The notes under the pieces are model-generated. The model was not told the origin of the DNA, searched no databases, and saw only the letters and a list, made by a program, of their open reading frames with translations. From IMG/VR virus record IMGVR_UViG_3300038416_000738: a stretch of DNA of 64,000 nucleotides; one strand, 5' to 3'. This DNA is from a virus. Shown here piece after piece: positions 1,980 through 49,677 of the stretch (position 1 is its first letter; every line of letters begins with the position of its first letter). The translations under genes were made by a program, and so were the position numbers.

Positions 1980-2849
1980 ATGGGCGACGTGATTGGTTTC
2001 CCGGTGCCCCGTCATGACGGGAAGAAGAACGACGGGAAGAAGAACGACGCGAAGAAGAACGGCGCGTGGCTCCCGTATAGCGAGACGTCCTCGGGGCAGC
2101 TCACGCTCGACGCCGCGCGCAAGACCGTGGAGTCTGCGAAATGGGGCAAGGTCATCATGCTTGGCGGTGGATCGTCCGAGGATGAAGTCGACGACGTCGC
2201 GACGGTGATCCGGTTTCCGAGTGAGCGTGTCCGCGTGAGCGAAGGCTCGTGTGAGGGCGAGGGCGGCGAAGTCATCACGCTCCGGCCGCCGAACGCGTAT
2301 CACATGGCCTACAACCTCTACGTCCGCGCGAGTCAGCTCGACGAGAATCCCGCGACGTACGACGAGGCGGAAGCGATGTACCGGCGCGCGATCCTGCTCG
2401 ACCCGGGGCTCGCCATCGCGCACACGAATCTCGGCAACATCCTTTTTCGTCGCGGTGAGGATCGCGAGGCCGAGACGCTCTATCGCGCGGCCGTTGCGAT
2501 CGACGAACGCCAGCCGGAAGCGCATTACAACCTCGGTTACGTGATGCTCGAACGCGGCGACGCGCTCGCCGCGTCGGAGCACTTCGGCAAGGCGATCGCT
2601 CGGGACGCCCGCTTCGCGGACGCGCACTTCAACCTTGCGATGGCGTTCGAGCAGATGGGTCGGGGCGCGGAGGCGCGGACAAACTGGAAAAAGTACCTGG
2701 ATCTCGAGCCGAACGGCACGTGGGCGGACATCGCCCGCGCGCACTTGGCGCCGGTGGCGGGGTCGACGGCGGGGCCGGGGTCCGCGAGGCCGAAGCGGAG
2801 GCGCGGGCGCTCGAAGCGCGCGGAATCGGGCCTTACAGGGCCTACGTAG
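1980..2849 (+). CDS. TPR-repeat protein
   Basis: C-terminal half has consecutive TPR-like repeats (AYHMAYNLY.., AHTNLGNIL.., AHYNLGYVM.., AHFNLAMAF..); N-term KKND repeats. Confidence 0.7.
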   Translation: MGDVIGFPVPRHDGKKNDGKKNDAKKNGAWLPYSETSSGQLTLDAARKTVESAKWGKVIMLGGGSSEDEVDDVATVIRFPSERVRVSEGSCEGEGGEVITLRPPNAYHMAYNLYVRASQLDENPATYDEAEAMYRRAILLDPGLAIAHTNLGNILFRRGEDREAETLYRAAVAIDERQPEAHYNLGYVMLERGDALAASEHFGKAIARDARFADAHFNLAMAFEQMGRGAEARTNWKKYLDLEPNGTWADIARAHLAPVAGSTAGPGSARPKRRRGRSKRAESGLTGPT

Positions 2850-2866
2850 ACAGAATGTCTATATAG
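2847..2866. promoter_or_regulatory. palindromic operator TAGACA-GAA-TGTCTA followed by TATATAG
   Basis: perfect 15-bp palindrome read directly; identical element (inverse spacer) at 3828-3847; lies 55 nt upstream of ku ATG. Confidence 0.5.
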
Positions 2867-2919
2867 TTGCATGGGTCGGGAGTCGGCGTTATAAGGGTCG
2901 GAAAGGTGAGGTGAGCCAC

Positions 2920-3705
2920 ATGTCTTCGTCAGCGCGCGCAATCGGTTCAGGAACGATCTCGTTCGGGCTCGTGTCGATCCCGTTCAAGGTCTACACGACG
3001 GCGTCGTCCCACGACGCGTCGTTCAACATGCTCCACGGCAAATGCGGGAGCCGCATGAAGCAGCAGTACCTCTGCCCGGTCGAGAACGTGGTTGTCGACC
3101 GCACGGAGATGGTGAAGGGCTTCGAGTACGCCAAGGATCGGTACGTCCAGTTCACGGCCGAAGAGCTGAAGAAGCTCGAACCCGCGAAGACCGATTCGCT
3201 CGAGATCGTCGAGTTCGTGCCGGAGGAGAGCGTCGATCTCGCGTACCTCGAAAAGAGCTACTACATCGGGCCGGACAAGGGCGCCGGAAAATCGTACCAG
3301 CTCCTCGCGCAGGCGATGAAGGTCGCGAAGAAGATCGCGGTCGGCCGCTACTGGACGCGCGGGCGCGTGCAGCTCGTCCTCATTCGCCCGTACCGCGGGG
3401 GCCTCCTCATGTCGTACGCGTACTACGCGAGCGAGGTGCGCGCGTTCGAGGGCATCGCGCCGAGCGAGAAGACGGAGTTCAAGGAAATCGAGCTGGATCT
3501 CGCGGCGCAGCTCATCAAGCGGCTCGAAACCCCGGCATTCAAGGCGGACAAGTACAAGGACGAGTACCAGGACCGCATCCGGGACGCGGTGGACCAGAAG
3601 ATCGCGGGCAAAGAGATCAGCCTGCCCGACGCGGCGCCTCCGGCGATCATCGTCGACCTCTTCGAGGCGCTCAAGCGCAGCATCGCGGCGGGGATGGGGA
3701 AGTGA
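2920..3705 (+). CDS. ku: Ku DNA end-binding protein (NHEJ)
   Basis: N-terminal 'ISFGLVSIPFKVYTA' Ku core motif, ~260 aa, C-terminal extension typical of bacterial/phage Ku; GGTGAGG RBS. Confidence 0.85.
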   Translation: MSSSARAIGSGTISFGLVSIPFKVYTTASSHDASFNMLHGKCGSRMKQQYLCPVENVVVDRTEMVKGFEYAKDRYVQFTAEELKKLEPAKTDSLEIVEFVPEESVDLAYLEKSYYIGPDKGAGKSYQLLAQAMKVAKKIAVGRYWTRGRVQLVLIRPYRGGLLMSYAYYASEVRAFEGIAPSEKTEFKEIELDLAAQLIKRLETPAFKADKYKDEYQDRIRDAVDQKIAGKEISLPDAAPPAIIVDLFEALKRSIAAGMGK

Positions 3706-5297: not shown

Positions 5298-7316
5298 GTG
5301 ACAAAACGGTATGATTGCGAAGAGAGGCATGAAGTGAACAAGGTGAGCAGGGCGGCGACGAAAGACAAGGCGATGGCGGTGGCGGCGGGGATCTCCGCGT
5401 TCGCGGGGATGCTCTCGCTCGCGGGCCTCTTCGGCCCCTTGGGCGACGCGATCGGGCACGTGCTCTCGGCGTCGCTCGGGGTCGTCGCTTGGGCCGGCGT
5501 CTTGATGCTCGTGCTCGGAGCCGCGTCTCTCTGGCGCGGCAAGGGTTACAAGGCTTTCCGCGGCTTCACGGATGCGGGACTCGTGCTCGTCTTCGCAACG
5601 CTCGTCCGCGTCTGGGGCGGCGATGGCGGGTTCTTGGGTGCGGGCCTCGGCGATCTCGCGGAGTCTGGGCTCGGGACCGTGGGGGCGTCTCTCATGGCGC
5701 TCTTCCTTGTTTTCCTGGTCTTCGCGTCCCGCGTCGACCTCCGCAGTATCGCGGCGCGCCGTGGTCGTAGTGGCGCGGCGCCGCTTCGTCCGGTGCGTGC
5801 GGACATGCCGCACACGCAGCCGATGTCTCCCGCGCCGGGGGCTTGGGCGGCGGAGCCGGAGTCGCTCGCGCCGGTGTCGGTCGCGGACGCCTGCTCGCAG
5901 GAAGATGCGGATGCGGGGACGTCATCGCCGGTGCCTTCGTCGTCGGTGCCTTCGTCGTCGGTGGCGTCGGAGCGGGAATCGTGGGAGCCGGAGTCGTCTT
6001 TCTCTGCGACGCTTCCTTGCGTCTCCGCTCCCGACGGGATCGGGTTCAAGAGCCGCGTTGTCCGCGAGTTCGAGAAGCCGGCGACGTCGCTTCTCTTGCG
6101 CACTGAAGCGTGCGCGGGCGCGGCCGGCGATGCGCAGCTCGCCGAAGAGTCTCGCCACCTCGTTTTGACGCTCTCGTCGTTCGACGTCGAGGCGAGCGTG
6201 CTCGCGGTGGTCCCGGGTCCGGTCGTCACGACGTTCGAGTGCGGGATCGAGGCAGGCACGAAGCTCTCGAAGGTGATGGGGCTCGAGGGGGACTTGTCGC
6301 TCGCGTTCGGCCGCAAGGTCCGCGTCGTGCCGTCGCGCCTCGGGCGCGTCGGGTTTGAGGTGCAGAACGAGGAGCGTGCTGCGGTAGGCCTTCGCGAGCT
6401 TCTCGAGGACGCGCGCTGGGAAGAGGCGAAGAAGTCGGCCTCGCTCCCCGTCGTGATCGGGCGCGACGTTCGCGGCGAGGGTGTCTACGCGGACCTCGCG
6501 ACGATGCCGCACCTCATCGTGGGCGGCGCGACGGGGTCGGGTAAGAGCGTGGGCACGAACGTTCTCTTGTCGTCGCTCCTCTTCGCGCGCTCGCCGGAAG
6601 AAGTCCGCCTCGTGCTCATCGACCCGAAGGTCGTCGAGCTTCAGCCCTACGCGGGCGTGCCGCACCTGCTCTGCCCGGTCGTGACGGAAGCGGATCGAGC
6701 GATCCGCGCGCTCTCGTGGTGCTGCGAAGAGATGGATCGTCGCTACCAGCAGCTCGCTCGCGGGGGGGTCAAGAACCTCGCGTCGTTCAACGGCAAGGTC
6801 TCGCGCACCGAGCGCATGCCGTTCATCGTGGTCGTGGTCGACGAGCTTGCCGACCTGATGATGCAGGAGAAGAAGGCCGTCGAGCCGCTCCTCGTGCGGC
6901 TCGGGCAGAAGGCGCGCGCCGCGGGCATCCACGTCGTCGTCGCCACGCAGCGCCCGTCCGTCGACGTCGTGACGGGGCTCATCAAGTCGAACTTCCCTTC
7001 GCGGGTGGCTTTTCGCACGGCGCAGGCGATTGACAGCAAAGTCGTGCTCGACGAGCAGGGCGCGGAGCACCTCCTCGGCAGGGGCGACGCGCTCGTGAAG
7101 ACCGGCGACTCGGATGCGCTCGTTCGGGTCCAGGTTCCGATGGTCACGGAGGACGAAGTCGGCGCGGTTGTCGGGCACCTTCGCTCGCAGGGCTTGCCGA
7201 ACTACGACGCGAGCATCCTCGCGGAATCCGAGCCCGTGGTGCTCGGAGACGACGGCAAGAGCGGTAAGCGGGGCAGCAAGCGCGCCGCTCGTGCGCCGGG
7301 GAAGGTGTGGTCGTGA
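5298..7316 (+). CDS. FtsK/SpoIIIE-family DNA translocase
   Basis: N-terminal multi-TM region, S/P-rich linker, C-terminal motor with Walker A GGATGSGKS, 'VVVVDELADLM' Walker B, 'ATQRPSVDV'. Confidence 0.9.
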   Translation: MTKRYDCEERHEVNKVSRAATKDKAMAVAAGISAFAGMLSLAGLFGPLGDAIGHVLSASLGVVAWAGVLMLVLGAASLWRGKGYKAFRGFTDAGLVLVFATLVRVWGGDGGFLGAGLGDLAESGLGTVGASLMALFLVFLVFASRVDLRSIAARRGRSGAAPLRPVRADMPHTQPMSPAPGAWAAEPESLAPVSVADACSQEDADAGTSSPVPSSSVPSSSVASERESWEPESSFSATLPCVSAPDGIGFKSRVVREFEKPATSLLLRTEACAGAAGDAQLAEESRHLVLTLSSFDVEASVLAVVPGPVVTTFECGIEAGTKLSKVMGLEGDLSLAFGRKVRVVPSRLGRVGFEVQNEERAAVGLRELLEDARWEEAKKSASLPVVIGRDVRGEGVYADLATMPHLIVGGATGSGKSVGTNVLLSSLLFARSPEEVRLVLIDPKVVELQPYAGVPHLLCPVVTEADRAIRALSWCCEEMDRRYQQLARGGVKNLASFNGKVSRTERMPFIVVVVDELADLMMQEKKAVEPLLVRLGQKARAAGIHVVVATQRPSVDVVTGLIKSNFPSRVAFRTAQAIDSKVVLDEQGAEHLLGRGDALVKTGDSDALVRVQVPMVTEDEVGAVVGHLRSQGLPNYDASILAESEPVVLGDDGKSGKRGSKRAARAPGKVWS

Positions 7317-10250: not shown

Positions 10251-10313
10251 TTTGACGAATGATGACTTGATCTGCTAAGTCATCCTCTGCGTGTGAGAGT
10301 CTGCGTGTGAGAG
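10251..10313 (+). promoter_or_regulatory. promoter/operator region: TTGACG-N18-TAAGTC with 8-bp inverted repeat GATGACTT-N8-AAGTCATC and 13-bp direct repeat x2
   Basis: read directly in 225-bp intergenic gap upstream of the histone-like gene. Confidence 0.4.
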
Positions 10314-10402
10314 GCTCGTTTCCCGGATCGAGGAAGGACCCGCGCCATAGGTGCGCGACGGGTCCTGTTCCGGGGGCGACCGCAAGCGAAAGTGATAAGT
10401 CG

Positions 10403-11212
10403 ATGGGCAGCAAGAAGGTGAAGGTGCACGGCTCGAAGAACACGAAGACCGTTGCGAAAAAGGCGAAGGCCGTTGCGAAAAAGGCGAAGACCGTCGCGAA
10501 GCCGGTCGCGGTCGCGGCGAAGCGGGCGAAGAAGGGTGGAGCGAAGGCGGCTGCAAAGGTCGCCGTGACCGTGGCGCCGGGCTTGAAGACGCCGGGCGCC
10601 GTCGCCGCGACGTTCTCAGCCGAGCGTCCCGGGTACCTGCCGCGCGAGGGATCGCTCCCCGACATGATCTTCCGCCGGCTGATGGACAAGCCCATGCCCT
10701 ACGGCGAGCTTGCCCGGCACCTCGAAGCGGACTCCAAGCTCACGGGCGACGCGCTCACGAGCCAGCTCTCCGCGGCGCTCTACGATCTCTGCAACAAGCG
10801 CGGCGTCCTCGTTCGCGTCGACTACGACACGTTTCAGCCTGTTCCGGCGAGTCGTTCGCGCGGTGCCCTCTACACGGTCGCGGATCGTGCCCGTGCGGGG
10901 TACGAAGCGCGCAGCAAGCTCAGCGCCAAAAGGGGTGCGAGCGTGCCGACTGCCGCAGGGCCTGGACAGCTCGATTTGACGAGCTTCGGGCGCCCGATGA
11001 ACGGTGCCGCGTCGGCTGCGTCGGTTGCATCGGCGGCGACTGCGCAGGTGAGCGATGCGATGCTGATCGTGCTTCCCAAGCCCGAGAAGATGAGCGACGC
11101 GATGTACGCGGAGCTTCGCGCAGCGCGGCAGGCGGCGGCCGACCAGGTCCGTCAGGCGACGGAAGCGATCACTGCGATCGATCGCCTCCTCAAGGTTCCG
11201 AGCTTCTCCTGA
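10403..11212 (+). CDS. histone H1-like lysine/alanine-rich DNA-binding protein
   Basis: N-terminal AKKAKAVAKKAKTVAKPVAVAAKRAKKGGAKAAAK repeats typical of bacterial H1/Hc1-like proteins; globular C-terminal domain. Confidence 0.65.
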   Translation: MGSKKVKVHGSKNTKTVAKKAKAVAKKAKTVAKPVAVAAKRAKKGGAKAAAKVAVTVAPGLKTPGAVAATFSAERPGYLPREGSLPDMIFRRLMDKPMPYGELARHLEADSKLTGDALTSQLSAALYDLCNKRGVLVRVDYDTFQPVPASRSRGALYTVADRARAGYEARSKLSAKRGASVPTAAGPGQLDLTSFGRPMNGAASAASVASAATAQVSDAMLIVLPKPEKMSDAMYAELRAARQAAADQVRQATEAITAIDRLLKVPSFS

Positions 11213-11223
11213 GGGGCAGTTCC

Positions 11224-12804
11224 GTGCTTCGTCCTTCCGTTGAAACCGAACGCCTCTCGACCGTGCAACGCGCCGCGCGGCACGTGCTCGACAAGGTCTC
11301 GCGAGGCGAGTCCGGTTTCGGCTCGATGGAGGTCTTCCCGTCCGACGTGCCGAGGGCGCTCTCGGGATCAACGGAGTACATCTGGCGTGCGCAGCTCGCG
11401 TGGGCCTGGTGGAAGGCGGCCTATCTCTCGTGCAGAATCCTGGGGCGCGGGGTCGGCAAGCATCGGAACTACACGCTCCTGCCTGCGGGTCGCGAAGCGC
11501 TCGAGCGAATCGCGAGCGATCCAGTCCTCGCGTCGTTCTACGTGAAGGCGAAGCGGAACACGGCTTCCGAGAGCTATCCCTCGGATTGGTTTCGGCCCGA
11601 AGCTCTCCGGGCGCCTCCTCCGAAGGAGGAGGACGCGGAAGAGCAGGACGCGGAAGAGGAGGACGCGGAAGAGGAGGACGCTGAAGACGAAACTTCTGTG
11701 GGAGGACAGGAAGAGCAAGGGCCTGCCTCCGAGGACAGGGAGAAGGATAGGAGCACGGGCATCGAGGTCGAACGCGAGCGACGTTGGGATCTCATGATCG
11801 GTGTGCTCGAGAAGGTGAGCACGCAATTCGGTGACTTGAAGACCGAGATCACTTCCCTCAAGGCCGAGGTCAAGGCGCAGTCGGATTTCGTGCTCGAGGT
11901 CGCACAAAGGATCGAGGCTTCGAGCCGGTCGAGCGTGACGAGCGTGCCGAGCGTGACGCGTGAAGATCTCGGGCGCGTCTCGGCAGAAATCGTGCAAGCG
12001 ATCGTTTCGGAGAAGACGAAGCTCCTTCACGTCGGCGCCAATTTTCTCGAATCCATTCGTTCCGTGCATTCGAAGCTCGACGAGGAGGAGCAGCGCCGGC
12101 AGGCGTGGGGCGAGAAGCTCTTGGCGTCGGTCGGCGGGATCGGATCCGAAGTTGCGGTACTCGCGAAGCGCGGAAAATCGCATGAGGAACTCGAAGTCTT
12201 CATCTCGGGACGCATTCAGCAGCTCGCGGACGACCTGAGGGGCGACCAAGAGGATCTTCTCGAGGCGGCTGCCGAGACCTTCGACAAGCGTCTCGGTGCG
12301 CTCGACAAACGTGTGGCCACGGCTGTCGCGAAGACGCCGGACTTGAGCGGCTTCAAGGAGGATCTGGCTGGCTTGAGGGAGGACTTCTCCGGCGTGAGGG
12401 AGGACTTCTCGAGCGTGCGCGAAGACGTGGAGGCGCTGCTCGAGTCGATCGACGAGTTCGATAAGGGCTTCATCTCGAGGCTCGAGGAGTACAAGAAGCA
12501 GGGCTCGGCGACGAACGAGACCTTCGTGCGCGTGACCGAGGGCGTGCAGGACATTCTGCGTGCGACGCGCGCCGTTTGCAGTGCGATGGTAGAGGTCAGC
12601 GTGCAGCGCAGCGCGGCGGCGGGTGCGTCGCCGGAGGAGATTCGCAGGAGGGCCGAGGGCGCGATCGACACCTTGGAGACTGCCTCGAAGGCGATCAAGG
12701 GGCGCGTGTCCTCGCTCGGCGCGGGCATCATCAAGAACACGGCTTTCGATGTGGACGACGGCGACAGCGACGGTGACAAGGGTGCGGAGGAAGAAGAGTC
12801 ATGA
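11224..12804 (+). CDS. large coiled-coil protein with acidic EEDAEE repeats
   Basis: 526 aa; 18-bp imperfect repeats at ~11625-11690 encode (EEDAEE)n; long heptad-like regions. Confidence 0.6.
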   Translation: MLRPSVETERLSTVQRAARHVLDKVSRGESGFGSMEVFPSDVPRALSGSTEYIWRAQLAWAWWKAAYLSCRILGRGVGKHRNYTLLPAGREALERIASDPVLASFYVKAKRNTASESYPSDWFRPEALRAPPPKEEDAEEQDAEEEDAEEEDAEDETSVGGQEEQGPASEDREKDRSTGIEVERERRWDLMIGVLEKVSTQFGDLKTEITSLKAEVKAQSDFVLEVAQRIEASSRSSVTSVPSVTREDLGRVSAEIVQAIVSEKTKLLHVGANFLESIRSVHSKLDEEEQRRQAWGEKLLASVGGIGSEVAVLAKRGKSHEELEVFISGRIQQLADDLRGDQEDLLEAAAETFDKRLGALDKRVATAVAKTPDLSGFKEDLAGLREDFSGVREDFSSVREDVEALLESIDEFDKGFISRLEEYKKQGSATNETFVRVTEGVQDILRATRAVCSAMVEVSVQRSAAAGASPEEIRRRAEGAIDTLETASKAIKGRVSSLGAGIIKNTAFDVDDGDSDGDKGAEEEES

Positions 12805-13670
12805 TGACGCCGATGAAGAAGCTCGCGCTCGCCGAGCGCAAGGAGTACGACGCGGCGAAGCCGGAGGAGCGTAAGGCGTGCGGAAAGGCGGGTATCGGGG
12901 CTTTCATCCACATGCGTCATCCGGACGTGATGGTGAACAACGTGCGGCATCGCTGCCGGCTCCTCGCAGCAGGCGATGCTGCGGACATCTTCTGGGCGCG
13001 TGTCGAGGATGGGATGCCGCTCGTGACGGCCGTCACGCTTTTCGCCGAGTGCGCGCGCGTCTGGCGTGAGAAGAACGGCAAAGGCGAAGGCGTGACCCAG
13101 GACGACGTCATCCGTGAACGGCTCATCCGGTACGACAGCGAGGGCCACATCCGGACAACGGCGGCTGGCAAGGTGTACCGGGCCTCGTCGACCTTCGGGC
13201 GCTCGAAGCGCATCGCGAGCGGCGAGGAGTCGGCCAAGAAGACCCCGTCTGGACGCCACAAGACGATCGTGCGTGAGGCCATCGCTGCTTGGATCGCCTC
13301 GCGTTTGCCGAAGAACGACGAGCGCGCTGCGGCGTGGGCCATGGAGGCGATGCGCGAGGTCGAGCTGCTCCTCACGACGTTCTCGAACCGTTTCTCGAAC
13401 CAGCCGCCCGACAAGAGCGGTCTGAGGAACGCGTGCGACTTACTCGGGATCCCGAGGCCGGTGTGGGGCAGGCCCGCGGACCAGGCCCGTGCACGGAAGA
13501 ACCAGCGCGCGGCGCTGAGGAAGATTCATCCGGACGTGATCGGCGACGACAGCGGGGTCGAAGCGTTCCAGGCCATCAACGACGCCTATGAGGCCATCGT
13601 CGCCTACAACGACAGCCTCGGTAGCAGGAACGGAAATGGGAACGGTAACGGTAACGGAGAGAAGGAGTGA
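12801..13670 (+). CDS. J-domain (DnaJ-like) protein
   Basis: C-terminal 'ARKNQRAALRKIHPDVIGDD...AFQAINDAYEAI' with the invariant HPD tripeptide; (NG)5 tail. Confidence 0.7.
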   Translation: MMTPMKKLALAERKEYDAAKPEERKACGKAGIGAFIHMRHPDVMVNNVRHRCRLLAAGDAADIFWARVEDGMPLVTAVTLFAECARVWREKNGKGEGVTQDDVIRERLIRYDSEGHIRTTAAGKVYRASSTFGRSKRIASGEESAKKTPSGRHKTIVREAIAAWIASRLPKNDERAAAWAMEAMREVELLLTTFSNRFSNQPPDKSGLRNACDLLGIPRPVWGRPADQARARKNQRAALRKIHPDVIGDDSGVEAFQAINDAYEAIVAYNDSLGSRNGNGNGNGNGEKE

Positions 13671-13675
13671 CACGC

Positions 13676-14245
13676 ATGGCTTCCAAGCACGACAAACACG
13701 ACCTCATGAGCATCCTCGAAGAGTGGGAGCCGAGTCCCGACGACACGGGGCTCGCGAGTCGCGGGGCGTCGCTCCTCAACTACGCGGCGGAGCGCAAGCC
13801 CGGCGCGCCGATCCCTTGGCCGATGATGACGAAGAAGATTCTCGGCATCGCGCGGATGCCGAGCGCCGACTCGAAGATCGTGATCGACATGCGCAAGCGC
13901 GCCTCGCAGATCCGTCTCGTGCTCGAGCGCGACTACAAGCGCGGGCTCGACAACATCGCCGGCCTCGGCGTGCGCGCGACGTTCAGCGACGACGACTTCG
14001 CGAACACGACGCTCACGCGCGCCGCCAAGCAGCACGAGCGCTCGGGCCGAAAGCTCATCGAGAAGCGCGCGCTCGTCGACCCGAAGAAGATGAAGAACAA
14101 GAAGTTGAAGACGTGGGTCGAAAATCTCTCGCCGGTGCTCACGTCGCACAACGATCGTTTGCTCAAGCTCCTCTTGCCGCCCGGCGAGGAGAAGGGCGAC
14201 GAGGAAGGCGGCAAAGAAGGCGGCAAGGATGGGTCGAAGAAGTGA
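13676..14245 (+). CDS. hypothetical protein
   Basis: ATG 13676 in ORF 13667..14245; K-rich C-terminus. Confidence 0.5.
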   Translation: MASKHDKHDLMSILEEWEPSPDDTGLASRGASLLNYAAERKPGAPIPWPMMTKKILGIARMPSADSKIVIDMRKRASQIRLVLERDYKRGLDNIAGLGVRATFSDDDFANTTLTRAAKQHERSGRKLIEKRALVDPKKMKNKKLKTWVENLSPVLTSHNDRLLKLLLPPGEEKGDEEGGKEGGKDGSKK

Positions 14246-14253
14246 GCGCGCAG

Positions 14254-14574
14254 ATGAACGCGGATTCGGGTGCGCTTTCGGAGATTGACATGCTCATGAA
14301 GGCGAGGCAGTCGGATCCCAGCCACGCTTTCAAAAGCGAGCTGCGTTCTCTCTTCGACGATTTCAAGGCGAGGGTAGGCCGCGATCCGGACGAGCGCGAG
14401 AGGCAGGCCATCGTGTTCTGGCTCGCCGGCGAGTGGATCTCCATCGCAGCTTTCGCGTGCGGGCGGGTGGATGCGAGCTTCTCGAGCGTCGCGGAGCGCG
14501 TCCGCTCGGAGTTCGAGCGCGGGCTCCGGAAGATGGTAGACGACGGGACAGCGCGAGCCGTGGAGCAGGAATGA
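14254..14574 (+). CDS. hypothetical protein
   Basis: ATG 14254 (alt GTG 14242) in tail of ORF 13588..14574; W/F-containing composition. Confidence 0.45.
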   Translation: MNADSGALSEIDMLMKARQSDPSHAFKSELRSLFDDFKARVGRDPDERERQAIVFWLAGEWISIAAFACGRVDASFSSVAERVRSEFERGLRKMVDDGTARAVEQE

Positions 14575-15392
14575 AGCCTTTTCTTAAATGGGCCGGCGGT
14601 AAGACGAAGCTCGTGCCGACCATCCTCGCGCGCGTTCCCGTGTTCGAGGGCTCGTATCACGAGCCTTTCGTTGGCGGCGGCGCCGTGTTCATGGCGCTCC
14701 ATGCGGCCGGCAAGCTCTCGCGTGCGCACCAGGTGGGCTATGCAGTCCTGAACGACGTGAACGCGGAGCTGATGAACGCGTACGCGGTGGTGCAGGACGG
14801 GGCCACGGACTTCGTGAAGAAGCTCCTCGAGATCAAGCACTCGAAGGAGACGTACTACAAGGTGAGGGCCAAGGAAGAAACGGAGCCGCTCGCGCGCGCT
14901 GTGCGTTTTTGTTACCTCAATAAAACCTGTTTTAACGGCCTCTATCGCGTGAATCGCGCCGGGCACTTCAACGTCCCCATCGGAGACTACAAGAACCCGG
15001 TCATCGTGGAGCCCGACGTCGTCGCCGCATGGCACGCGGCACTCGCGGGCGTGACGCTCCGCTCCGAGGACTTCGAGCCGCGCATCCTCGCCGCGAAGAG
15101 GGGCGACTTCATCTACGTGGACCCGCCGTACCTGCCGCGCTCGAAGACCGCCGACTTCACCTCGTACACGGCGGATCGCTTCGCGCTGAAAGAGCACGAG
15201 CGGCTCGCAGCGGCGCTCGTGACGGCAGACCGTCGCGGCGCGAAGTTCATCGCGAGCCAGGGCGACAGCGAAACGATCCGTGCACTCTACAAAGAGTTCG
15301 GGATCGAGAGCGTCTCGGTGACGCACGCGATCGCCGCGAAAAAAGCGTCGCGTGTGAAGGTCGGCGAGGTTCTGATTTCGAACGTGCGCTGA
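14571..15392 (+). CDS. dam: DNA adenine methyltransferase (Dam/D12-class, GATC-type)
   Basis: N-terminal 'KPFLKWAGGK' SAM motif, 'NKTCFNGLYR', catalytic 'DPPY'; ATG in ATGA overlap. Confidence 0.85.
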   Translation: MKPFLKWAGGKTKLVPTILARVPVFEGSYHEPFVGGGAVFMALHAAGKLSRAHQVGYAVLNDVNAELMNAYAVVQDGATDFVKKLLEIKHSKETYYKVRAKEETEPLARAVRFCYLNKTCFNGLYRVNRAGHFNVPIGDYKNPVIVEPDVVAAWHAALAGVTLRSEDFEPRILAAKRGDFIYVDPPYLPRSKTADFTSYTADRFALKEHERLAAALVTADRRGAKFIASQGDSETIRALYKEFGIESVSVTHAIAAKKASRVKVGEVLISNVR

Positions 15393-17183: not shown

Positions 17184-17200
17184 CTATGAAGGAGGAGAGA

Positions 17201-17638
17201 ATGAACAAGCTTCGACTTTACATCGCCACCGCCTCGAACCCGCTCGAGGAAGCAGAGCGCAGGATCGCTGACGCGAGGGCCGCAGGGTTCGAGATCACGC
17301 ACGACTGGACCAAGGACGTTCGGAGCGCGGGGAATGCTTCGCCGGATGACCCGAGGATTCGGACGTCTGCCGCGAAGGCCGATCTTCGTGGGGTAGAGAC
17401 GGCCGACGTCGTGTGGCTCATTCAGCCCGAAAACGCGAGCACCGGGGCGTGGGTCGAACTCGGTTACGCCTTGGCGCTGAAGGAGGCCGAAAACTCGAAG
17501 CACGCCGCGAAGCGTCCGAGGATCGTGGTCTCCGGCGCTTCCACGCGCTGCATCTTCGCCGACCTCGCCGACGATCGCTTCACGGATCACGACGACGCTT
17601 TCGTCTTCATCCGCGGGATGCTCGGAGCTTCGACATGA
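17201..17638 (+). CDS. nucleoside 2-deoxyribosyltransferase-like (Rossmann) protein
   Basis: GAAGGAGGAG RBS; 'VWLIQPENASTGAWVELGYALA' matches the G-x-x-x-E-x-G-x-A motif of the NDT/DNPH1-like family. Confidence 0.55.
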   Translation: MNKLRLYIATASNPLEEAERRIADARAAGFEITHDWTKDVRSAGNASPDDPRIRTSAAKADLRGVETADVVWLIQPENASTGAWVELGYALALKEAENSKHAAKRPRIVVSGASTRCIFADLADDRFTDHDDAFVFIRGMLGAST

Positions 17639-18356: not shown

Positions 18357-20228
18357 ATGCAGGTGCAGCTTGAGAGGTACGGCGCGCCCGGCGCGGCGGG
18401 CGCAGTGAAGTTCTCGCTCAAGAAGGGCAGCGAGGGGGACTTCCGATGCCTGCTCTCACCGTACGGGTGGCAGGCGAGCGTGCCGTCTTCGAAAGCGCCG
18501 GACGTGAAGGTCCTGTCGCAGCGCGATTTCCTCGTGCCCGTGCACGCCGCGATGCTCGCATGCGCGGCGCTCTCGAAGGCGAGGGTCGAGATCTTTGCCC
18601 CGAAGGAAGTCCAAGCGGCGGTCCGCTCCGCGGCGTGGAAGTGTAACGCGCCGAAGCTTTACGCTTACCAGAAGCAGGGCGCGGAGTTCCTCCGATCGCG
18701 GCGCCGGGCCATCCTTGCCGACGACATGGGCACCGGCAAGACGGCGCAGTCGCTTTCGGCGCTCGACGCCTCGAAGGCCGCGCTCATCGTCGTGCCTCCC
18801 GTCGTGCTCGGATCTTGGTTCGAGGAGGCGAGGCGCTGGCGACCCGATCTCACGGCGCGGATCTGGCAGCCCCCCTACGGGATCTGGGCGGAGCCGGGCG
18901 AGATCTGCATCATCGCCTATTCGAAGCTCCCCTATGAGAGCATCGAGTCGAGACTCAGGTGCCCTACGTGCGGCCGCCTCTCGGCATCCTATGTGGACGA
19001 GGCGAGCGTGCTCGTCGAGGAGTTCGTCGAGGAAGACCGCCGCGGGATCGAGAAGAAGATCCAGAGGTGGTCGTACCGATGTGACAAGGATCATGGGGGA
19101 CTCTGCGGCCAAGGTTTCACGGCGCGCGACGACGAGGCCGAGGTCGAGCACATCTGGATCGGGCCGCGGCCGAAGCACGCCGTGCAGCTCATCGTCGACG
19201 AGGCCCACTGGTGCAAGAACCGAAATGCGAAGCGCACGATCGGCGTGCGGACGGTCGCGGCGCAGTGCTGGACGACCTGGATGCTCACGGGAACGCCGCT
19301 CCTCAACGAGCCGATGGAGCTTTGGACGCTCTGCCAATCCTTCCCTGGTCAAGGAAAAGGCAGCTCGGGCGCGAGCGACGCGTTCGGGTCCTTCCCGAAG
19401 TTCGTCGAGATGTTCCACGGCAAGAGGAAGTTCTGGGGCGGCTACGACTGGGCCGTGGACGACGAGGTCGAGCCCGAAGCCCGAGCACGCTTCGCGACGC
19501 TCGCGCTCCGGCGCACGAGGCAGGAGGTGCTCCCAGAGCTGCCAGAGAAGACGCGACGTTTCCTCGAGATCGCGGTCGACGTGCGCGGCATGCCGCACTG
19601 GGGCGAGCCGGAGAACTCCGCGCTCGGCAGACTGAGCGACGATGAGGTGCTCGGGGCCTGCGCACCCGAGGGATCCCTGTCCACGGTGCGCCGCGAGCTT
19701 GCCTCGCGGAAGCTCGACTCGCTCGAGCAGCTCGTCGAGGAGTACGAGGCGACGGGCGAGCCCGTCGTGGTGTTTAGTTACCACAAGGATCCGATCAAGC
19801 AGCTCGGCGCGCGCAAGGGTTGGGCGTGGATCACGGGCGAGACGAACGATCGCGACCGGACGGCGCACGTCGCGGCTTTTCAGGCGGGAAAACTCAAGGG
19901 CCTCGCCGGGACCATCGGCGCGATGGGTGTCGGGGTCACGCTCACGCGGTCCTCGAACATGCTATTCCTCGACCGCGACTTCGTCCCGGCGAACAACCTC
20001 CAGGCGGAGGACCGCGAGATGCGGATCGGACAGAAGCGCGCCGTGCTCATCACGATCCTCGTGACGGATCACCCCGTCGACAGGCGGGTGCGCGCCGTGC
20101 TCGAGAAGAAGGAGAGGTTGCTCGAGGCGCTCGATCTCTCCGAGGGATCGAATGTGCGCGCGGAGGTTGCGTCCCACAAGGGCAGAATAAAGATGGCTGG
20201 CAAGGTCCCTGATTCGGAGGTCTCATGA
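18357..20228 (+). CDS. SNF2-family helicase with Cys-cluster insertion
   Basis: 'LADDMGTGKT' motif I, 'LIVDEAHWCKN' motif II, helicase C-terminal motifs; CPTCG...RCDKDHGGLCGQ insertion between. Confidence 0.85.
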   Translation: MQVQLERYGAPGAAGAVKFSLKKGSEGDFRCLLSPYGWQASVPSSKAPDVKVLSQRDFLVPVHAAMLACAALSKARVEIFAPKEVQAAVRSAAWKCNAPKLYAYQKQGAEFLRSRRRAILADDMGTGKTAQSLSALDASKAALIVVPPVVLGSWFEEARRWRPDLTARIWQPPYGIWAEPGEICIIAYSKLPYESIESRLRCPTCGRLSASYVDEASVLVEEFVEEDRRGIEKKIQRWSYRCDKDHGGLCGQGFTARDDEAEVEHIWIGPRPKHAVQLIVDEAHWCKNRNAKRTIGVRTVAAQCWTTWMLTGTPLLNEPMELWTLCQSFPGQGKGSSGASDAFGSFPKFVEMFHGKRKFWGGYDWAVDDEVEPEARARFATLALRRTRQEVLPELPEKTRRFLEIAVDVRGMPHWGEPENSALGRLSDDEVLGACAPEGSLSTVRRELASRKLDSLEQLVEEYEATGEPVVVFSYHKDPIKQLGARKGWAWITGETNDRDRTAHVAAFQAGKLKGLAGTIGAMGVGVTLTRSSNMLFLDRDFVPANNLQAEDREMRIGQKRAVLITILVTDHPVDRRVRAVLEKKERLLEALDLSEGSNVRAEVASHKGRIKMAGKVPDSEVS

Positions 20229-20808: not shown

Positions 20809-21077
20809 CTCGTTCGCGGAAGATGTCTTTCAAGATGGTGACGAACGAGGTCAAGACGGTGGCGGACGAGGTGCTCTGGCTCGCGCGCCACCGCAAAGAG
20901 GACGCGTGGTCCTTGGTGCGTGACTTCAAACGACTCACGCGCGGCCGTCGCGGCGAGCTTGGGCCGCTCGCTGCGACGTTGATCTCGAATCTCGAGTTCG
21001 CCTTGAAGGATGAGCAGAAAAGACTCAGGGCCGAGGCTAGAAAGAAGAAAGCGAAGAACGGAAGGGCGGTCCGATGA
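20805..21077 (+). CDS. hypothetical protein
   Basis: ATGA overlap; 90 aa. Confidence 0.45.
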   Translation: MTRSRKMSFKMVTNEVKTVADEVLWLARHRKEDAWSLVRDFKRLTRGRRGELGPLAATLISNLEFALKDEQKRLRAEARKKKAKNGRAVR

Positions 21078-21691
21078 AGAGCCTTACGCTCATCGCCGCG
21101 ATGACTCCGGACGGCGTCATCGCCGAGGACGGCAAGATCCCGTGGCACGTCCGCTCGGACATGCTTCGGTTCAAGCGCCTCACGACGGGCCACGCGATCA
21201 TCATGGGACGAAAGACGTACGAGTCGATCGGCAAGGTTTTGCCGAATCGCCACAGCCTCGTCGTGTCGCGATCCCCGCACGTGGCGTCGCTCGCGGGTCT
21301 CATCGAGCCGAAGGCGGTCGATGCCTCGGCCGCCTCGTCGCTGTCGTGGTGGACGACGTTCGATCGCGCCCTCGAGCGCGCGTACGCGCATGACCCGTCA
21401 CCGTTCGTCATTGGCGGCGGCGAGATCTACAAGCTCGCGCTGCCGCTCGCGACCACGCTGGAGATCACGTACATCGCGCGGGCCGAGGAGCGCGGCAAGC
21501 GCGACCGACGGATTGGGATGGAGAAGGTGACGCGCTTCCCGATCATTCGCCCGGATCCGTGGGACTGGCGATGCGTCCGTGCGGAGCCCGCGGCGGAGTC
21601 CGTGAGGGGCGAGGACGGGAGCGAGACGCTTTCGGAAGTAGAGGGCGTCGAGTTCCTCACCTTCGAGAGGAGGACGCGTCATGGAGACTGA
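21074..21691 (+). CDS. folA: dihydrofolate reductase
   Basis: 'LIAAMTPDGVIAEDGKIPWHVRSDMLRFKRLTTGHAIIMGRKTYESIG' canonical DHFR N-terminus; '...FVIGGGEIY'. Confidence 0.9.
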   Translation: MKSLTLIAAMTPDGVIAEDGKIPWHVRSDMLRFKRLTTGHAIIMGRKTYESIGKVLPNRHSLVVSRSPHVASLAGLIEPKAVDASAASSLSWWTTFDRALERAYAHDPSPFVIGGGEIYKLALPLATTLEITYIARAEERGKRDRRIGMEKVTRFPIIRPDPWDWRCVRAEPAAESVRGEDGSETLSEVEGVEFLTFERRTRHGD

Positions 21692-37630: not shown

Positions 37631-38031
37631 TGCTCGAGTTGAAGGACGGGCGCTACATCGCTGCCGTTTGGTTCGTTCCGCTCCGGAACGCCGTCGACAG
37701 GAGCGGGACCTTTTTCCAGCGCGCGGACTGGCTCGCCACGCTCTACCGGGACGAGGGTGACGAGACGTTCAAGCTCCATTATCGCTTCCGGTATTACGTC
37801 GATGACAAGATCCAAGGCTCGAAGGATGGGCGCAGCGGGTACCTCGTGGATCTCGTGGGCAAGACCGAATGCGAGGCGACGGCGATCGTCTCCTCCGCGG
37901 CGAGCGTGATCGCCAAGACGTGCAAGGGTGCGGACATTCACAAGATCGTCCTCCGCTCGAGCGACGCGCGCTTCGTCGCCTCGCGCCTCGAGAAAGAAGA
38001 CTTCGTGCATTTCGAGCGCAATCGTGGCTGA
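37630..38031 (+). CDS. hypothetical protein
   Basis: TGATG overlap. Confidence 0.5.
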   Translation: MLELKDGRYIAAVWFVPLRNAVDRSGTFFQRADWLATLYRDEGDETFKLHYRFRYYVDDKIQGSKDGRSGYLVDLVGKTECEATAIVSSAASVIAKTCKGADIHKIVLRSSDARFVASRLEKEDFVHFERNRG

Positions 38032-40264
38032 CGCCCTCGTCTCCAAGAAAGCGGAACGTGGTAAGCCTGCCGAGGAAGTCTCGAACGAGGATCCGGCGGC
38101 GCCGAAGATCGGGCGCTGGTATTGGGTGTCGGACGACGACGGTGAGGGCGGCACGAAGAAGTGGTTTGGCTGCGTCACGCGCGTGGGATCGAACTACGTC
38201 GAGATCACGGCGCCGAGCCGCGGCTACGACCGCGTCCACGAAGACGAGTTTTGGAAGCGCTGCGAGCACGAGCCCGATCCCGAGCGCGTCATTCGCGACG
38301 AGATCGCCTCGCGCCAGGCCGAGGTCCGCGGGCTCATGGACAAGGTGAAGGAGATCACCGCGCGCCTCGCCATCACCACGGGACCGGTGCTCCCCTCGGC
38401 GGGCTCCGAGACCCAGGCGCTCGCGCTCCGCGGAGCGGGCGACAAGGACATGGGCAAGTACAAGAAGGCGCTCGTCCTCGCGAAGGAGAAGACGCTCCCG
38501 GAGCTTTTCAAGGAGATCAGGGACGTGAACGAGGGGCTCGGGCGATGGCTCGCCGCGGAATTGATCCCGATGGAGGCCCAGGCCGAGGCGATGGAGCCAG
38601 CGATTGAGGCCATCCAAGATCGCATCTTCTCGGTCGAACTTTACGCGGGTCTCGTCGAAGAGATCATCCAGATCCGGCAGGGTGAGCCCGCCCCCGTCGG
38701 CGAGAAGATCCGACTGATGCAGCGTCGCTGTTATTGTGATGAGGAGTGTTTGGCGCGCTACGAAGTCGGCGGCATGGAATTCAAGGACATGCACGCCTTC
38801 GATCGCTGGCTCGCGAAGAAGGAAAATATGGAACGGATCCTCCCGTTCCCACGCTGCGTCGCTGCGTTCCAAGTGCGGCGCGCCAAGAAGGAGCGCGAGT
38901 GGGGGAACTTGGCCGAGTTTCTCAACATCATTAACGAGGAGAAGACGGACAAGTTCACGTACCTCTATCTCCGCAACGGCGCGCAGCTCTTCTGCCTCGG
39001 GACGGGCATCGAGTTCGGCGAGCAACTTTTCCCGGACATGGCTTCCTGGAAAGTGTCGAAAGGTGGCCCGCTCTACGCGAAAATGTTCTCGGATCGCGTC
39101 GACAAGATCATCACGAAGGACGAGTACGACGCGATGGTCGAGGAAGAGGAGAAAGAAATCGCGGAAGAAGAAGCGGAGGCGAAGAAGCACCCGGAGAAGG
39201 ATCGCTGGAGGTCCAGGAGTTACTTCCGCGAATCACGCGACTACAAGCCCTTCGATCGCTCGAACGTTCACTACGACGAGATGGTCAAGCACGTGCAGGA
39301 CGAGATGAAGAGGCACAACCGCCTCGTGCTCGTGCTCCAGGGACTGCTCGATCGGTCGCCCGTCTTCCACCCACACCCGCCTTGGGCCGTGTGGACGGAC
39401 GCAGGTTTCGGGCAGGCCCTCGAACTCGTCTACGACGACACGCGCGCGCTCGCGCCTGGCGAGCGCCCCGACTTCGAGGCGTACCGCGCGCGCCTGAACG
39501 CGTCCCTGAAGGCCGGTTCGATCACCATCGGTCAAGAGATCCAGTGGGAGAAGGAGGAAGCGATCAAGGAGAACGCCCGGATGGATCGCGACTACCGCCA
39601 CAAGCGGAGCGACTACCGCCCGACGCGCTACCGTCCCTACGGAAACCCCGGTCCCGGCAAGCTCGCGCGCGTCTTCGAGTGGAAACCCAAGTCGAAAAAG
39701 TGCGTCTACGAGTGGAAGCGGGAGCGCCAGACGCAGACGTGGAAGGACGACGGTAGCTCCATCCGCTGCACGTTCATGGTCGATGCTTCGAAAGTCTTCC
39801 ACGTCGATGCCTACAAGCCCGGAGACTTCCACCAATTCTTCGATGACCCGCGGACGCGCGCCGACTACCTCGAGTGGGCGCCCTTCCTCCTCGCGGCCGA
39901 GGAGTACCACGCGGGAAACCGCAAGGCGCCGAAGCCGCTCGAACCGATCCCGCGGCGCAAGACCGAGGACGGCGCGTGGAAGTACAGGAAGAAAAAGCAG
40001 CGGAAAGCTTGGCTCGGGAAAGCGATCCGTTTGAAACAGGCCGTGACGACGCAAGGCGGGGCGGCCCATGAGAAGGGGACGCTCTGGCGGGTGATCGATG
40101 GTCGCGGCGACCACTTCTCCATCGCGGGCATCGACGACGAGGGACGCCGCCTTCTTGGTGAGGACAAGCGCTTCGTCATGAACGTCCACATGGGCAAGTT
40201 CGAGCTGGACAACGCGGTGCCGCCCGAGCCGCCCGAGCCGGAGGAGGAAGAGGAAGAAAAATGA
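38024..40264 (+). CDS. large hypothetical protein (747 aa)
   Basis: GTG start overlapping previous stop; long uninterrupted ORF with balanced W/Y/F/K/E-rich composition; no recognisable motif. Confidence 0.7.
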   Translation: MADALVSKKAERGKPAEEVSNEDPAAPKIGRWYWVSDDDGEGGTKKWFGCVTRVGSNYVEITAPSRGYDRVHEDEFWKRCEHEPDPERVIRDEIASRQAEVRGLMDKVKEITARLAITTGPVLPSAGSETQALALRGAGDKDMGKYKKALVLAKEKTLPELFKEIRDVNEGLGRWLAAELIPMEAQAEAMEPAIEAIQDRIFSVELYAGLVEEIIQIRQGEPAPVGEKIRLMQRRCYCDEECLARYEVGGMEFKDMHAFDRWLAKKENMERILPFPRCVAAFQVRRAKKEREWGNLAEFLNIINEEKTDKFTYLYLRNGAQLFCLGTGIEFGEQLFPDMASWKVSKGGPLYAKMFSDRVDKIITKDEYDAMVEEEEKEIAEEEAEAKKHPEKDRWRSRSYFRESRDYKPFDRSNVHYDEMVKHVQDEMKRHNRLVLVLQGLLDRSPVFHPHPPWAVWTDAGFGQALELVYDDTRALAPGERPDFEAYRARLNASLKAGSITIGQEIQWEKEEAIKENARMDRDYRHKRSDYRPTRYRPYGNPGPGKLARVFEWKPKSKKCVYEWKRERQTQTWKDDGSSIRCTFMVDASKVFHVDAYKPGDFHQFFDDPRTRADYLEWAPFLLAAEEYHAGNRKAPKPLEPIPRRKTEDGAWKYRKKKQRKAWLGKAIRLKQAVTTQGGAAHEKGTLWRVIDGRGDHFSIAGIDDEGRRLLGEDKRFVMNVHMGKFELDNAVPPEPPEPEEEEEEK

Positions 40265-49299: not shown

Positions 49300-49677
49300 G
49301 TGACCATGAATCGCTTGAAGCCGGCCCTACCGCCTGGCACGCACTACGCGGACAGCAAGAACATCGTCGTGAGGTCGATCGTCGGTACGGACTCGAACAC
49401 CACGTGGCGCGACAACATTCGGAACCTCTTGAAGACGGCGCGCGGCGGAGCCGACAGCGAGTGGCGGCGATTCGGTTACGGTCTCCTTTATGACGTGGTG
49501 GGCTGGACACCGGGCCAATACGCGCTCGGGATGTACGCGGCGCTCCACGACTGCGGGGTGATCCTCTCCAAGAAAAAGTTTGGCGAGAAGGACCTCTCCC
49601 GGATCCGGGAGAAACTCGAGCAAGCAGGTTTCAATCTCGTCCCCGAATGGAAAGCGGCGAGTGGTGGAGCGAAATGA
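49300..49677 (+). CDS. hypothetical protein (partner of nucleotidyltransferase)
   Basis: ORF track; stop overlaps NTase start. Confidence 0.45.
   Translation: MTMNRLKPALPPGTHYADSKNIVVRSIVGTDSNTTWRDNIRNLLKTARGGADSEWRRFGYGLLYDVVGWTPGQYALGMYAALHDCGVILSKKKFGEKDLSRIREKLEQAGFNLVPEWKAASGGAK

What the first reader, a model, noticed from the sequence alone, without database searches (positions are those of the whole stretch)
12801..13670. J-domain protein with intact HPD motif fused to an unknown N-terminal domain
The C-terminal J-domain (…RKIHPDV…) implies recruitment of host DnaK/Hsp70. The 220-aa N-terminal domain is uncharacterised and would be the client-targeting part. Virus- and MGE-encoded J proteins typically redirect Hsp70 to replication or assembly complexes.
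Basis: partly seen in the sequence, partly recalled or inferred. Interest (0 to 1): 0.55.

Follow-up and report, generated by a model that had tools for sequence, protein, structure and literature searches.

The report
Phage J-domain co-chaperone with unknown partner domain
This gene, in what looks like a very large uncultured phage, encodes a real J-domain protein (an adaptor that switches on the host Hsp70/DnaK chaperone) fused to a conserved domain of unknown fold, and it always sits next to the same partner gene, so it is a new family within a well-known kind of protein.

Summary

The N-terminal ~204 aa form a basic (pI 9.7), mostly helical domain with no confident relative in Pfam, PHROGs, NCBIfam, PDB or BFVD. 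A profile of that domain alone finds 243 protein clusters. Nearly all are ~300 aa and end in a J-domain, so the fusion is a fixed architecture.

The gene lies in a conserved cassette: a coiled-coil protein upstream (start and stop overlap, ATGA) and a ~180-aa protein downstream. The downstream partner was present in all ten loci examined, including two IMG/VR viral contigs.

It is best read as a specialised class C J-protein of large uncultured phages that brings host DnaK to a phage-specified target. That target is unknown. Two ideas for the N-domain, a ParB-type HTH and the lambda P helicase loader, were tested and rejected.

The parts
12801..13670 (+). Gene B: 289-aa class C J-domain protein (the finding)
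   Evidence: ORF. GC3 0.85. 28 homologues at E<=0.01. A profile of the N-domain finds 243 clusters.
12801..13220 (+). N1 module, residues ~1-140: five helices with an HTH-like turn (GMPLxTA), a further helix and a beta-hairpin. Conserved A9, E12, R51, W65, M72, T76, A77, Y111, G123, R127. Basic.
   Evidence: Models with pLDDT mostly 85-95 up to residue ~120, lower beyond. Conservation and pI 9.7. Its ~85-aa helical core is tandemly duplicated in P0034, P0052, P0128 and P0131. No confident fold match.
13221..13412 (+). Basic linker (residues ~140-152, low confidence) followed by a two-helix hairpin (153-199) that joins N1 to the J-domain
   Evidence: Secondary structure and pLDDT. R158 is conserved in 85% of the broad family.
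13413..13628 (+). J-domain, residues ~205-276: helix I 205-215, an extended loop, basic helix II 228-242, HPD 243-245, helix III/IV 250-276
13527..13535 (+). HPD codons (cat ccg gac), H243-P244-D245
   Evidence: Sequence. Invariant in 27 of 27 close homologues and present in 114 of 121 distant ones.
13629..13667 (+). Low-complexity C-terminal tail (SRNGNGNGNGNGEKE), variable among homologues
   Evidence: Tandem repeat at 13627-13658. pLDDT below 50 for residues 277-289. Not aligned in the family.
11224..12804 (+). Gene A: 526-aa protein. It has a ~115-aa N-terminal domain with a winged-helix-like sequence pattern, an acidic linker, a long coiled coil and an acidic tail. Its stop overlaps the start of B (ATGA).
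   Evidence: ORF. 33-35% identity to the upstream genes of L005 and L006. Only coiled-coil-type Pfam noise. A positional analogue with the same N-domain/linker/coil layout lies upstream in the distant loci L007, L011, L012 and L013, with an ATGA overlap in several. hhalign to the L013 protein is only 58%. Weak PadR-type winged-helix similarity, E=0.37.
13676..14245 (+). Gene C: 189-aa protein of unknown function (an alternative GTG start at 13667 would overlap the stop of B). Invariant G-V-R-A and C-terminal L-P-P motifs. It lies immediately downstream of the J-protein gene in every locus examined.
   Evidence: 51-59% identity in close loci. 27% identity, E=2e-18, in distant locus L007. hhalign 99.6-99.8% to the downstream genes in IMG/VR loci L013 and L014. 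Alignment A5. No Pfam, PHROG, NCBIfam, PADLOC or PDB hit.

Best explanation
Gene B encodes a specialised class C (type III) J-domain co-chaperone carried by a large, uncultured, probably viral element (contigs of 186-285 kb). Its C-terminal J-domain docks on the host's ATP-bound DnaK and triggers ATP hydrolysis. This step is inferred from the intact HPD loop and basic helix II.

The family-specific, basic N-terminal domain supplies the address. It brings DnaK to one dedicated phage-specified target rather than to misfolded proteins in general. The most likely targets are the products of the co-transcribed, translationally coupled neighbours: protein C, which is always adjacent, and the coiled-coil protein A. 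These may act on DNA, because A and the gene before it look like winged-helix proteins and the N-domain is basic and sometimes duplicated in tandem.

Functionally this resembles HscB with IscU, or the polyomavirus T antigens: one J-protein serving one job.

Shown here: the gene is real, the J-domain fold and motif are present, the architecture is fixed, the cassette is conserved, and the surroundings are phage-like. Inferred: DnaK stimulation, the identity of the client, and any DNA binding.
For: J-domain:
- Pfam E=1.3e-4.
- The PDB profile search returns mostly J-domains, including the four best hits.
- HPD is invariant or near-invariant.
- 73 of 121 relatives hit Pfam DnaJ at E<=1e-3, best 1.1e-9.
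- hhalign to the DnaJ J-domain gives 97.4%.
- Helix II carries R230, R232, K233, R236, R240 and K241.

Not a general chaperone:
- There is no G/F region, zinc finger or DnaJ C-terminal domains.
- NCBIfam DnaJ models score 15 bits against cut-offs above 300.

Fixed two-domain architecture:
- A profile of residues 1-205 alone finds 243 clusters, nearly all 270-330 aa with a C-terminal J-domain.

Operon:
- A and B overlap by ATGA, and C follows within 5 nt or overlaps.
- The B-C pair was found in all ten loci examined: the window, L005-L007, L008/L009 and L010-L014.

Viral setting:
- The 778-aa neighbour is 44% identical to proteins of two cultured phages.
- Relatives lie in IMG/VR contigs and next to a Phage_phiTE_072 gene.
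- Genes are unidirectional and densely packed.
- No ORF of 320 aa or more in the window is an Hsp70, so a host DnaK is the likely partner.
Against: - There is no biochemical evidence.
- This particular sequence is below Pfam's gathering score.
- The loop between helices I and II is longer than usual.
- The client is a guess from gene order. No interaction prediction could be run.
- No capsid, portal or terminase gene was seen in the 64 kb, so the viral nature rests on indirect evidence.
- The rest of the ~260-kb genome was not examined and could encode its own Hsp70.
- The only characterised phage J-protein, Rki, works by interfering with DnaK, not by delivering a client.
Confidence: 0.55

Rival explanations
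1. Rki-like host takeover. The protein does not deliver a client. It ties up or redirects host DnaK early in infection, for example by stabilising the heat-shock sigma factor or blocking DnaK's normal duties. In this reading the N-domain only regulates or localises it.
For: - The one characterised phage J-protein works this way, is expressed early and is toxic through DnaK (PMC3486835).
- This gene sits in a block with the character of early and DNA-metabolism functions: Ku, FtsK, methylase, SNF2, DHFR.
Against: - Rki has an N-terminal J-domain and an unrelated partner region. No similarity to any record among 50,697 phage genomes was found.
- The strict conservation of a ~200-aa N-domain and of an adjacent partner gene in all ten loci examined argues for a specific binding job.
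Confidence: 0.2
2. Counter-defence. The J-domain protein competes with host DnaJ or diverts DnaK, so that host immune sensors depending on the DnaK/DnaJ system are not triggered.
For: A 2025 paper on large phages raises this possibility for phage chaperones. [quoted passage not shown]
Against: - There is no similarity to any PADLOC model or known anti-defence protein.
- The neighbours are DNA-metabolism genes, and nothing specific supports this reading.
Confidence: 0.1
3. Degenerate or J-like domain that no longer activates Hsp70, as with Tim16/Pam16, and serves only as a structural helical module.
For: - The sequence is below Pfam's gathering score.
- The helix I-II loop is extended.
Against: - J-like proteins lack HPD. 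Here HPD is invariant in close relatives and kept in 94% of distant ones.
- Helix II is basic.
- The family profile aligns to DnaJ helices I-III.
Confidence: 0.05
4. The element is not a phage but a giant plasmid or other cellular element, and the cassette serves its replication or partition, as DnaK/DnaJ activate plasmid Rep proteins.
For: - No structural phage gene was seen in 64 kb.
- Ku, FtsK and OmpA-domain genes are present.
- The close family is absent from IMG/VR.
- One related contig is binned in a Thermoanaerobaculia MAG.
Against: - There is no hit among 72,556 plasmids or in the GTDB genomes.
- Distant family members are in IMG/VR viral contigs.
- A neighbouring 778-aa protein has 44% identity to proteins of cultured phages.
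- No iterons or repeats were found near the cassette.
Confidence: 0.1

Closest known systems
Rki (ORF 057w) of T4-like phage RB43, the first characterised phage J-domain protein (PMC3486835)
   Same: It is phage-encoded and is neither class A nor class B. It has a functional HPD J-domain plus a region of unknown function, lies in an early gene block and acts through host DnaK.
   Different: Rki's J-domain is N-terminal, whereas here it is C-terminal. There is no detectable sequence similarity. Rki is an ORFan, whereas this protein belongs to a family of 243 clusters with a conserved partner gene.
HscB/Hsc20, a class C J-protein dedicated to a single client (IscU)
   Different: The domain order is reversed. 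There is no similarity outside the J-domain, and the window protein does not hit the TIGR00714 hscB model.
Polyomavirus large and small T antigens
   Different: They come from eukaryotic viruses and carry the J-domain at the N-terminus. The partner domains (origin-binding, helicase, PP2A-binding) are unrelated. DNA binding by the present N-domain is not shown.
DjlA and Tim14/Pam18, J-proteins with a C-terminal J-domain
   Different: Those proteins are membrane-anchored. No transmembrane segment appears in the model here, and the window protein does not hit the NCBIfam DjlA model.
DnaJ/DnaK homologues of 'moraphages', large aquatic phages (PMC12619734)
   Same: These are large uncultured phages that carry chaperone and co-chaperone genes.
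   Different: According to the paper's abstract, some moraphages encode DnaK and DnaJ homologues bearing evidence of recent transfer from Flavobacteriales. The present protein shares only the J-domain with DnaJ and has its own N-domain.

Membership tests
J-domain proteins (Pfam PF00226 superfamily) | His-Pro-Asp tripeptide in the loop between helices II and III | tested here: met
   H243-P244-D245 lies between predicted helices 228-242 and 250-276. It is invariant in 27 of 27 close homologues and present in 114 of 121 distant ones.
J-domain proteins (Pfam PF00226 superfamily) | Compact helical J fold (helices I-IV, with an antiparallel II/III hairpin) | tested here: met
J-domain proteins (Pfam PF00226 superfamily) | Significant sequence similarity to J-domain profiles | tested here: met
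   The window protein alone is below threshold: Pfam 22.5 bits against a gathering score of 27.8, E=1.3e-4. At family level, 73 of 121 relatives hit at E<=1e-3 with a best of 1.1e-9, and hhalign to the E. coli DnaJ J-domain gives 97.4%, E=1.1e-11.
J-domain proteins (Pfam PF00226 superfamily) | Positively charged helix II that contacts Hsp70 | tested here: met
   R230, R232, K233, R236, R240 and K241 lie in helix II. The role of these residues is taken from established knowledge of DnaJ-DnaK complexes.
J-domain proteins (Pfam PF00226 superfamily) | HPD-dependent stimulation of Hsp70/DnaK ATPase | not testable with these tools
   This needs an ATPase assay or a J-domain swap complementation experiment.
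Class A/B J-proteins (DnaJ, CbpA) | N-terminal J-domain, G/F-rich region, (CxxCxGxG)4 zinc finger (class A) and beta-sandwich C-terminal domains | tested here: not met
   The J-domain is C-terminal. The protein has only four Cys and no CxxC. NCBIfam DnaJ and CbpA models match only the J-domain at about 15 bits against cut-offs of 300-600. It is therefore class C.
J-like proteins (Tim16/Pam16 type) | J fold without the HPD motif | tested here: not met
   HPD is present and conserved.
Rki family (phage RB43 057w) | Sequence similarity to Rki and an N-terminal J-domain | tested here: not met
   tblastn against 50,697 phage records found no match at E<=0.01. Whether RB43 is in that collection was not checked. 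The J-domain is C-terminal.
ParB/KorB-type HTH DNA-binding domain (considered for the N-domain) | Profile similarity to the ParB HTH region | tested here: not met
Lambda P helicase loader (considered for the N-domain) | Profile similarity to lambda P | tested here: not met

The most novel reading that the evidence does not exclude
The A-B-C cassette is a self-contained nucleoprotein switch of large uncultured phages. In this reading the basic, repeatable N1 module of B binds DNA, or the winged-helix/coiled-coil protein A bound to DNA, and the built-in J-domain uses host DnaK to remodel or disassemble that complex. Protein C, with its conserved Leu-rich (K/R)LLLPP tail, would be the DnaK substrate. 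This would be a bacterial-virus counterpart of the polyomavirus T-antigen strategy, or a lambda O/P-type step with the J-protein supplied by the phage itself.
Probability: 0.15. Interest if true: 0.75.

Novelty: new member of a known kind. Interest (0 to 1): 0.42.

Why it matters
J-domain proteins decide where Hsp70 acts, yet only one phage-encoded example (Rki) has been studied experimentally. This work defines a family of 243 clusters at 50% identity, found only in metagenomes. Its members are probably phage-encoded class C J-proteins with a fixed new N-terminal domain and an obligatory neighbour gene. The family is absent from Pfam, PHROGs, NCBIfam and 50,697 sequenced phage genomes. If the cassette delivers a defined phage client to DnaK, it would give a tractable model for how large phages of soil bacteria exploit the host chaperone network. 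It would also assign a function to three families of 'hypothetical' proteins. Class C J-proteins with unannotated partner domains are very common (thousands of architectures, PMC10410713), so the finding extends a known theme rather than breaking it.

Tried and rejected
3. Ribosomal protein S13/HhH-like similarity. This was only E=0.4 in the PDB profile search and was not pursued.
4. Searches that found no family member:
   - the window J protein against phage genomes by tblastn and the surrounding 8 kb by blastn
   - two distant members, P0042 and P0072, against phage genomes
   - plasmids
   - GTDB genomes
   - IMG/VR with the close family
   - BFVD structures
   - PADLOC
   - PHROGs for A, the N-domain of B and C.
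5. IMG/VR with the very broad alignment A3 failed because no stretch was conserved enough. It worked with the sub-alignment A7.
6. The AlphaFold database fold library was unavailable.
7. A search for iterons or origin-like repeats and for promoters or terminators around the cassette found nothing above background.
8. A homologue search with the N-domain of A returned one close relative only.
9. Two giant proteins among the profile hits (P0055, P0129) are false positives created by summing weak matches over repeats.
10. No second copy of any cassette gene, and no other J-domain, exists in the window.
Full report
1. The observation

An ORF runs from 12801 to 13670 on the + strand and encodes 289 aa. 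It has an ATG start that overlaps the TGA stop of the upstream gene (ATGA). A GGAGGA Shine-Dalgarno sequence lies 9 nt upstream. Its codon-position GC content (0.62/0.49/0.85) matches that of the neighbouring + strand genes. The long antisense ORFs over the same stretch are the usual by-product of 64% GC.

The gene is conserved. A word-indexed search found 28 proteins at E<=0.01, all from metagenomes, at 42-100% identity.

2. Is it a J-domain?

An HPD tripeptide alone is weak evidence. This protein has a second HPD at residue 40 that is not conserved. The case rests on four independent lines.

- Sequence profiles. Pfam DnaJ matches residues 220-265 (profile positions 11-52 of 63) at E=1.3e-4, but at 22.5 bits, below the gathering score of 27.8. 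A profile of the close family searched against PDB sequences returns mostly J-domains, including the four best hits, led by human Hsp40 1hdj at E=0.01.
- Conservation. H243, P244 and D245 are invariant in 27 close homologues and present in 114 of 121 distant ones. The exceptions are HSD, HTD, HAD, NTD, HPT and one fragment.
- The broad family. 73 of 121 members hit Pfam DnaJ at E<=1e-3, with a best of 1.1e-9. Its profile aligns to helices I-III of the E. coli DnaJ J-domain with hhalign probability 97.4%, E=1.1e-11.

Helix II is basic (R230, R232, K233, R236, R240, K241), as expected for the Hsp70-contacting face. The J-domain is therefore real and under selection. The only departures from the norm are a longer helix I-II loop (GIPRPVWGRPAD) and the C-terminal position.

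The protein has no G/F region, no zinc finger and no DnaJ-type C-terminal domains. NCBIfam DnaJ, CbpA, DjlA and HscB models are either not hit or hit only over the J-domain, far below their cut-offs. It is a class C J-protein.

3. The N-terminal domain

Residues 1-204 are basic (pI 9.7). They are predicted with good confidence (pLDDT 84.7, pTM 0.65 when modelled alone). The predicted elements, in order:
- five helices, with a conserved turn (GMPLxTA) before the fifth;
- a sixth helix and a beta-hairpin (116-128);
- a short helix and a poorly ordered basic linker;
- a two-helix hairpin leading into the J-domain.

No library recognises the domain:
- Pfam, PHROGs, NCBIfam and PADLOC give nothing.
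- A profile search of PDB sequences gives nothing below E=0.1.
- Foldseek against BFVD gives nothing below E=0.3.

Two tempting leads were tested and rejected.
- Lambda P helicase loader. hhalign gave probability 0.1%.

The domain is nonetheless not an orphan. A profile of residues 1-205 alone, searched against 1.84 billion representative proteins, finds 243 clusters at E<=1e-3. Two of these are repeat-protein artefacts. Of the best 150 hits, 139 are 240-400 aa, and 160 of all 174 family sequences held at that point contain HPD ~40 residues from the C-terminus in a canonical context, such as 'KLARLYHPDxHGGDE...YEAVxxAYxxLExYNEQ'. The N-domain plus J-domain fusion is therefore a fixed, ancient architecture.

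In a few members the first ~85-130 residues are duplicated in tandem (P0034, P0052, P0128, P0131). In others the hairpin segment is missing (P0037, P0043). The ~85-aa helical core therefore behaves as an independent module.

4. Context

All credible genes in the 64-kb window are on the + strand, and GC skew is positive throughout. The J gene (B) is translationally coupled to its neighbours.

- Upstream, gene A (11224-12804, 526 aa) has a ~115-aa N-terminal domain, an acidic linker, a long coiled coil and an acidic tail.
- Downstream, gene C (13676-14245, 189 aa) follows within a few nucleotides.

In related elements the same trio recurs with the same ATGA overlap:
- L005 and L006: A is 33-35% identical and C is 51-59% identical.
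- L008/L009 and L010 show the same arrangement.

In distant loci, where B is only ~22-30% identical (L007, L011, L012, and the IMG/VR contigs L013 and L014), a C homologue is still immediately downstream. The evidence is BLAST E=2e-18, hhalign 99.6-99.8%, and invariant GVRA and LPP motifs. An upstream gene with the same layout as A is also present: a small N-domain with a W...L..L...GY......Y pattern, then an acidic or proline-rich linker and a coiled coil. Its sequence support is weak (hhalign 58%). The pattern resembles PadR-type winged helices only at E=0.37.

The gene before A (10307-11212) has a Lys/Ala-rich histone H1-like tail and another winged-helix-looking domain. Neither A nor C has any Pfam, PHROG, NCBIfam, PADLOC or PDB match.

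5. What kind of element is this?

The identical protein lies on contigs of 242,829 and 261,538 bp. Homologues lie on contigs of up to 285,329 bp. The gene order is conserved: FtsK ... A-B-C ... Dam methylase ... SNF2 helicase ... DHFR.

Evidence for a phage:
- The 778-aa ORF at 37928-40264 is 44% and 43% identical over ~80% of its length to proteins of Mesorhizobium phage Cp1R7A-A1 and Erythrobacter phage vB_EliS-L02.
- Several ORFs have strong PHROG matches.
- Distant family members lie in IMG/VR viral contigs, one of 190 kb, and next to a Phage_phiTE_072 gene.

Evidence missing:
- No capsid, portal or terminase gene was seen in the window.
- The close family is not in IMG/VR, in 50,697 phage records, in 72,556 plasmids or in GTDB genomes.

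One related contig is binned in a Thermoanaerobaculia (Acidobacteriota) MAG, which is a weak hint at the host. No ORF of 320 aa or more in the window is an Hsp70. The window has no tRNA genes and no Rfam matches.

6. Mechanism

The evidence establishes four things: a conserved J-domain with an intact catalytic loop, a conserved family-specific N-domain, an operon with two conserved partners, and a phage-like setting.

From established knowledge of J-domain proteins, the J-domain binds ATP-bound Hsp70 and triggers hydrolysis, so that Hsp70 clamps whatever the J-protein presents. Class C members use their other domain to select one client or one location (PMC10410713). The most economical reading is that B brings host DnaK to a phage-specified target, most plausibly C and/or A.

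The target complex may sit on DNA. Supporting hints are the basic, repeatable N1 module, the winged-helix-like neighbours and the DNA-metabolism neighbourhood. The conserved C-terminal (K/R)LLLPP motif of C resembles Leu-rich DnaK-binding peptides such as NRLLLTG. That comparison is recalled from memory and was not tested.

The main rivals are:
- Rki-like interference with DnaK (PMC3486835);
- counter-defence (an idea raised in PMC12619734);
- a plasmid rather than a phage context;
- a non-catalytic J-like domain, which is made unlikely by HPD conservation.

7. Comparison and novelty

The closest functional analogues are:
- HscB (a dedicated class C J-protein encoded beside its client);
- the polyomavirus T antigens (viral J-domain fusions);
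- Rki (a phage J-protein);
- DjlA and Tim14 (which share the C-terminal J-domain position).

The protein belongs to none of these families. It shares only the J-domain with them.

Class C J-proteins with unannotated partner domains are extremely numerous. One survey reports 2,712 architectures and notes many bacterial and phage ones of unknown function (PMC10410713). I therefore rate this a new member, in effect a new architectural subfamily, of a known kind.

The added value of this analysis is threefold: the definition of the family, the fixed architecture, and the conserved B-C (and probably A-B-C) cassette in uncultured large phages.

8. Verdict

- The function of the N-domain and the identity of the client remain open.
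- Interest is moderate.

Noticed in passing
window 1-64000: Every credible gene is on the + strand, and GC skew is positive in all 32 two-kb bins. There are no tRNA genes and no Rfam matches. This fits one replication/transcription arm of a very large phage-like genome (contigs of 242-285 kb).
   Followed up: partly
window 2635-3705 and 5298-7316: A Ku-like DNA-end-binding protein (Pfam Ku, 3.6e-43) and an FtsK/SpoIIIE-type DNA translocase (1.1e-58) lie a few kb upstream of the cassette. FtsK keeps its position in the related elements L005, L008 and L010.
   Followed up: partly
window 10307-11212: The gene before the cassette encodes a Lys/Ala-rich, histone H1-like N-terminal tail (21-nt tandem repeat at 10443-10500) followed by a winged-helix-looking domain. 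A shorter homologue lies at the same position in L005.
   Followed up: partly
window 37928-40264: A 778-aa ORF has no Pfam or PHROG hit but is 44% and 43% identical, over ~80% of its length, to hypothetical proteins of Mesorhizobium phage Cp1R7A-A1 and Erythrobacter phage vB_EliS-L02. It is the best link between this element and cultured phages.
   Followed up: partly
window 14433-15392, 17186-17638, 18357-20228, 21074-21691, 49647-50624: A nucleotide and DNA-metabolism set: Dam-type N6-adenine methyltransferase, a sub-threshold nucleoside 2-deoxyribosyltransferase-like protein, SNF2 helicase, DHFR and an RlaP-type nucleotidyltransferase.
   Followed up: no
window 52551-54329 and 59028-59924: A 592-aa protein with a C-terminal OmpA peptidoglycan-binding domain, and an ABC-transporter-ATPase-like protein. 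Both are unusual cargo for a phage.
   Followed up: no
window 11626-11687 and 12348-12417 (inside gene A): In-frame tandem repeats encode an acidic (EEDAE)n linker and repeated REDFSxV segments within the coiled coil of protein A.
   Followed up: no
window 14170-14245 (C-terminus of gene C) and homologues in L005-L014: Protein C ends in a conserved (K/R)-L-L-L-P-P motif followed by an acidic tail. It resembles Leu-rich DnaK-binding peptides, but this comparison is recalled from memory and was not scored.
   Followed up: no
L012 9049-9999: In one distant locus, the gene in the position of A carries a ClpX-type C4 zinc finger at its C-terminus (precomputed Pfam zf-C4_ClpX).
   Followed up: no
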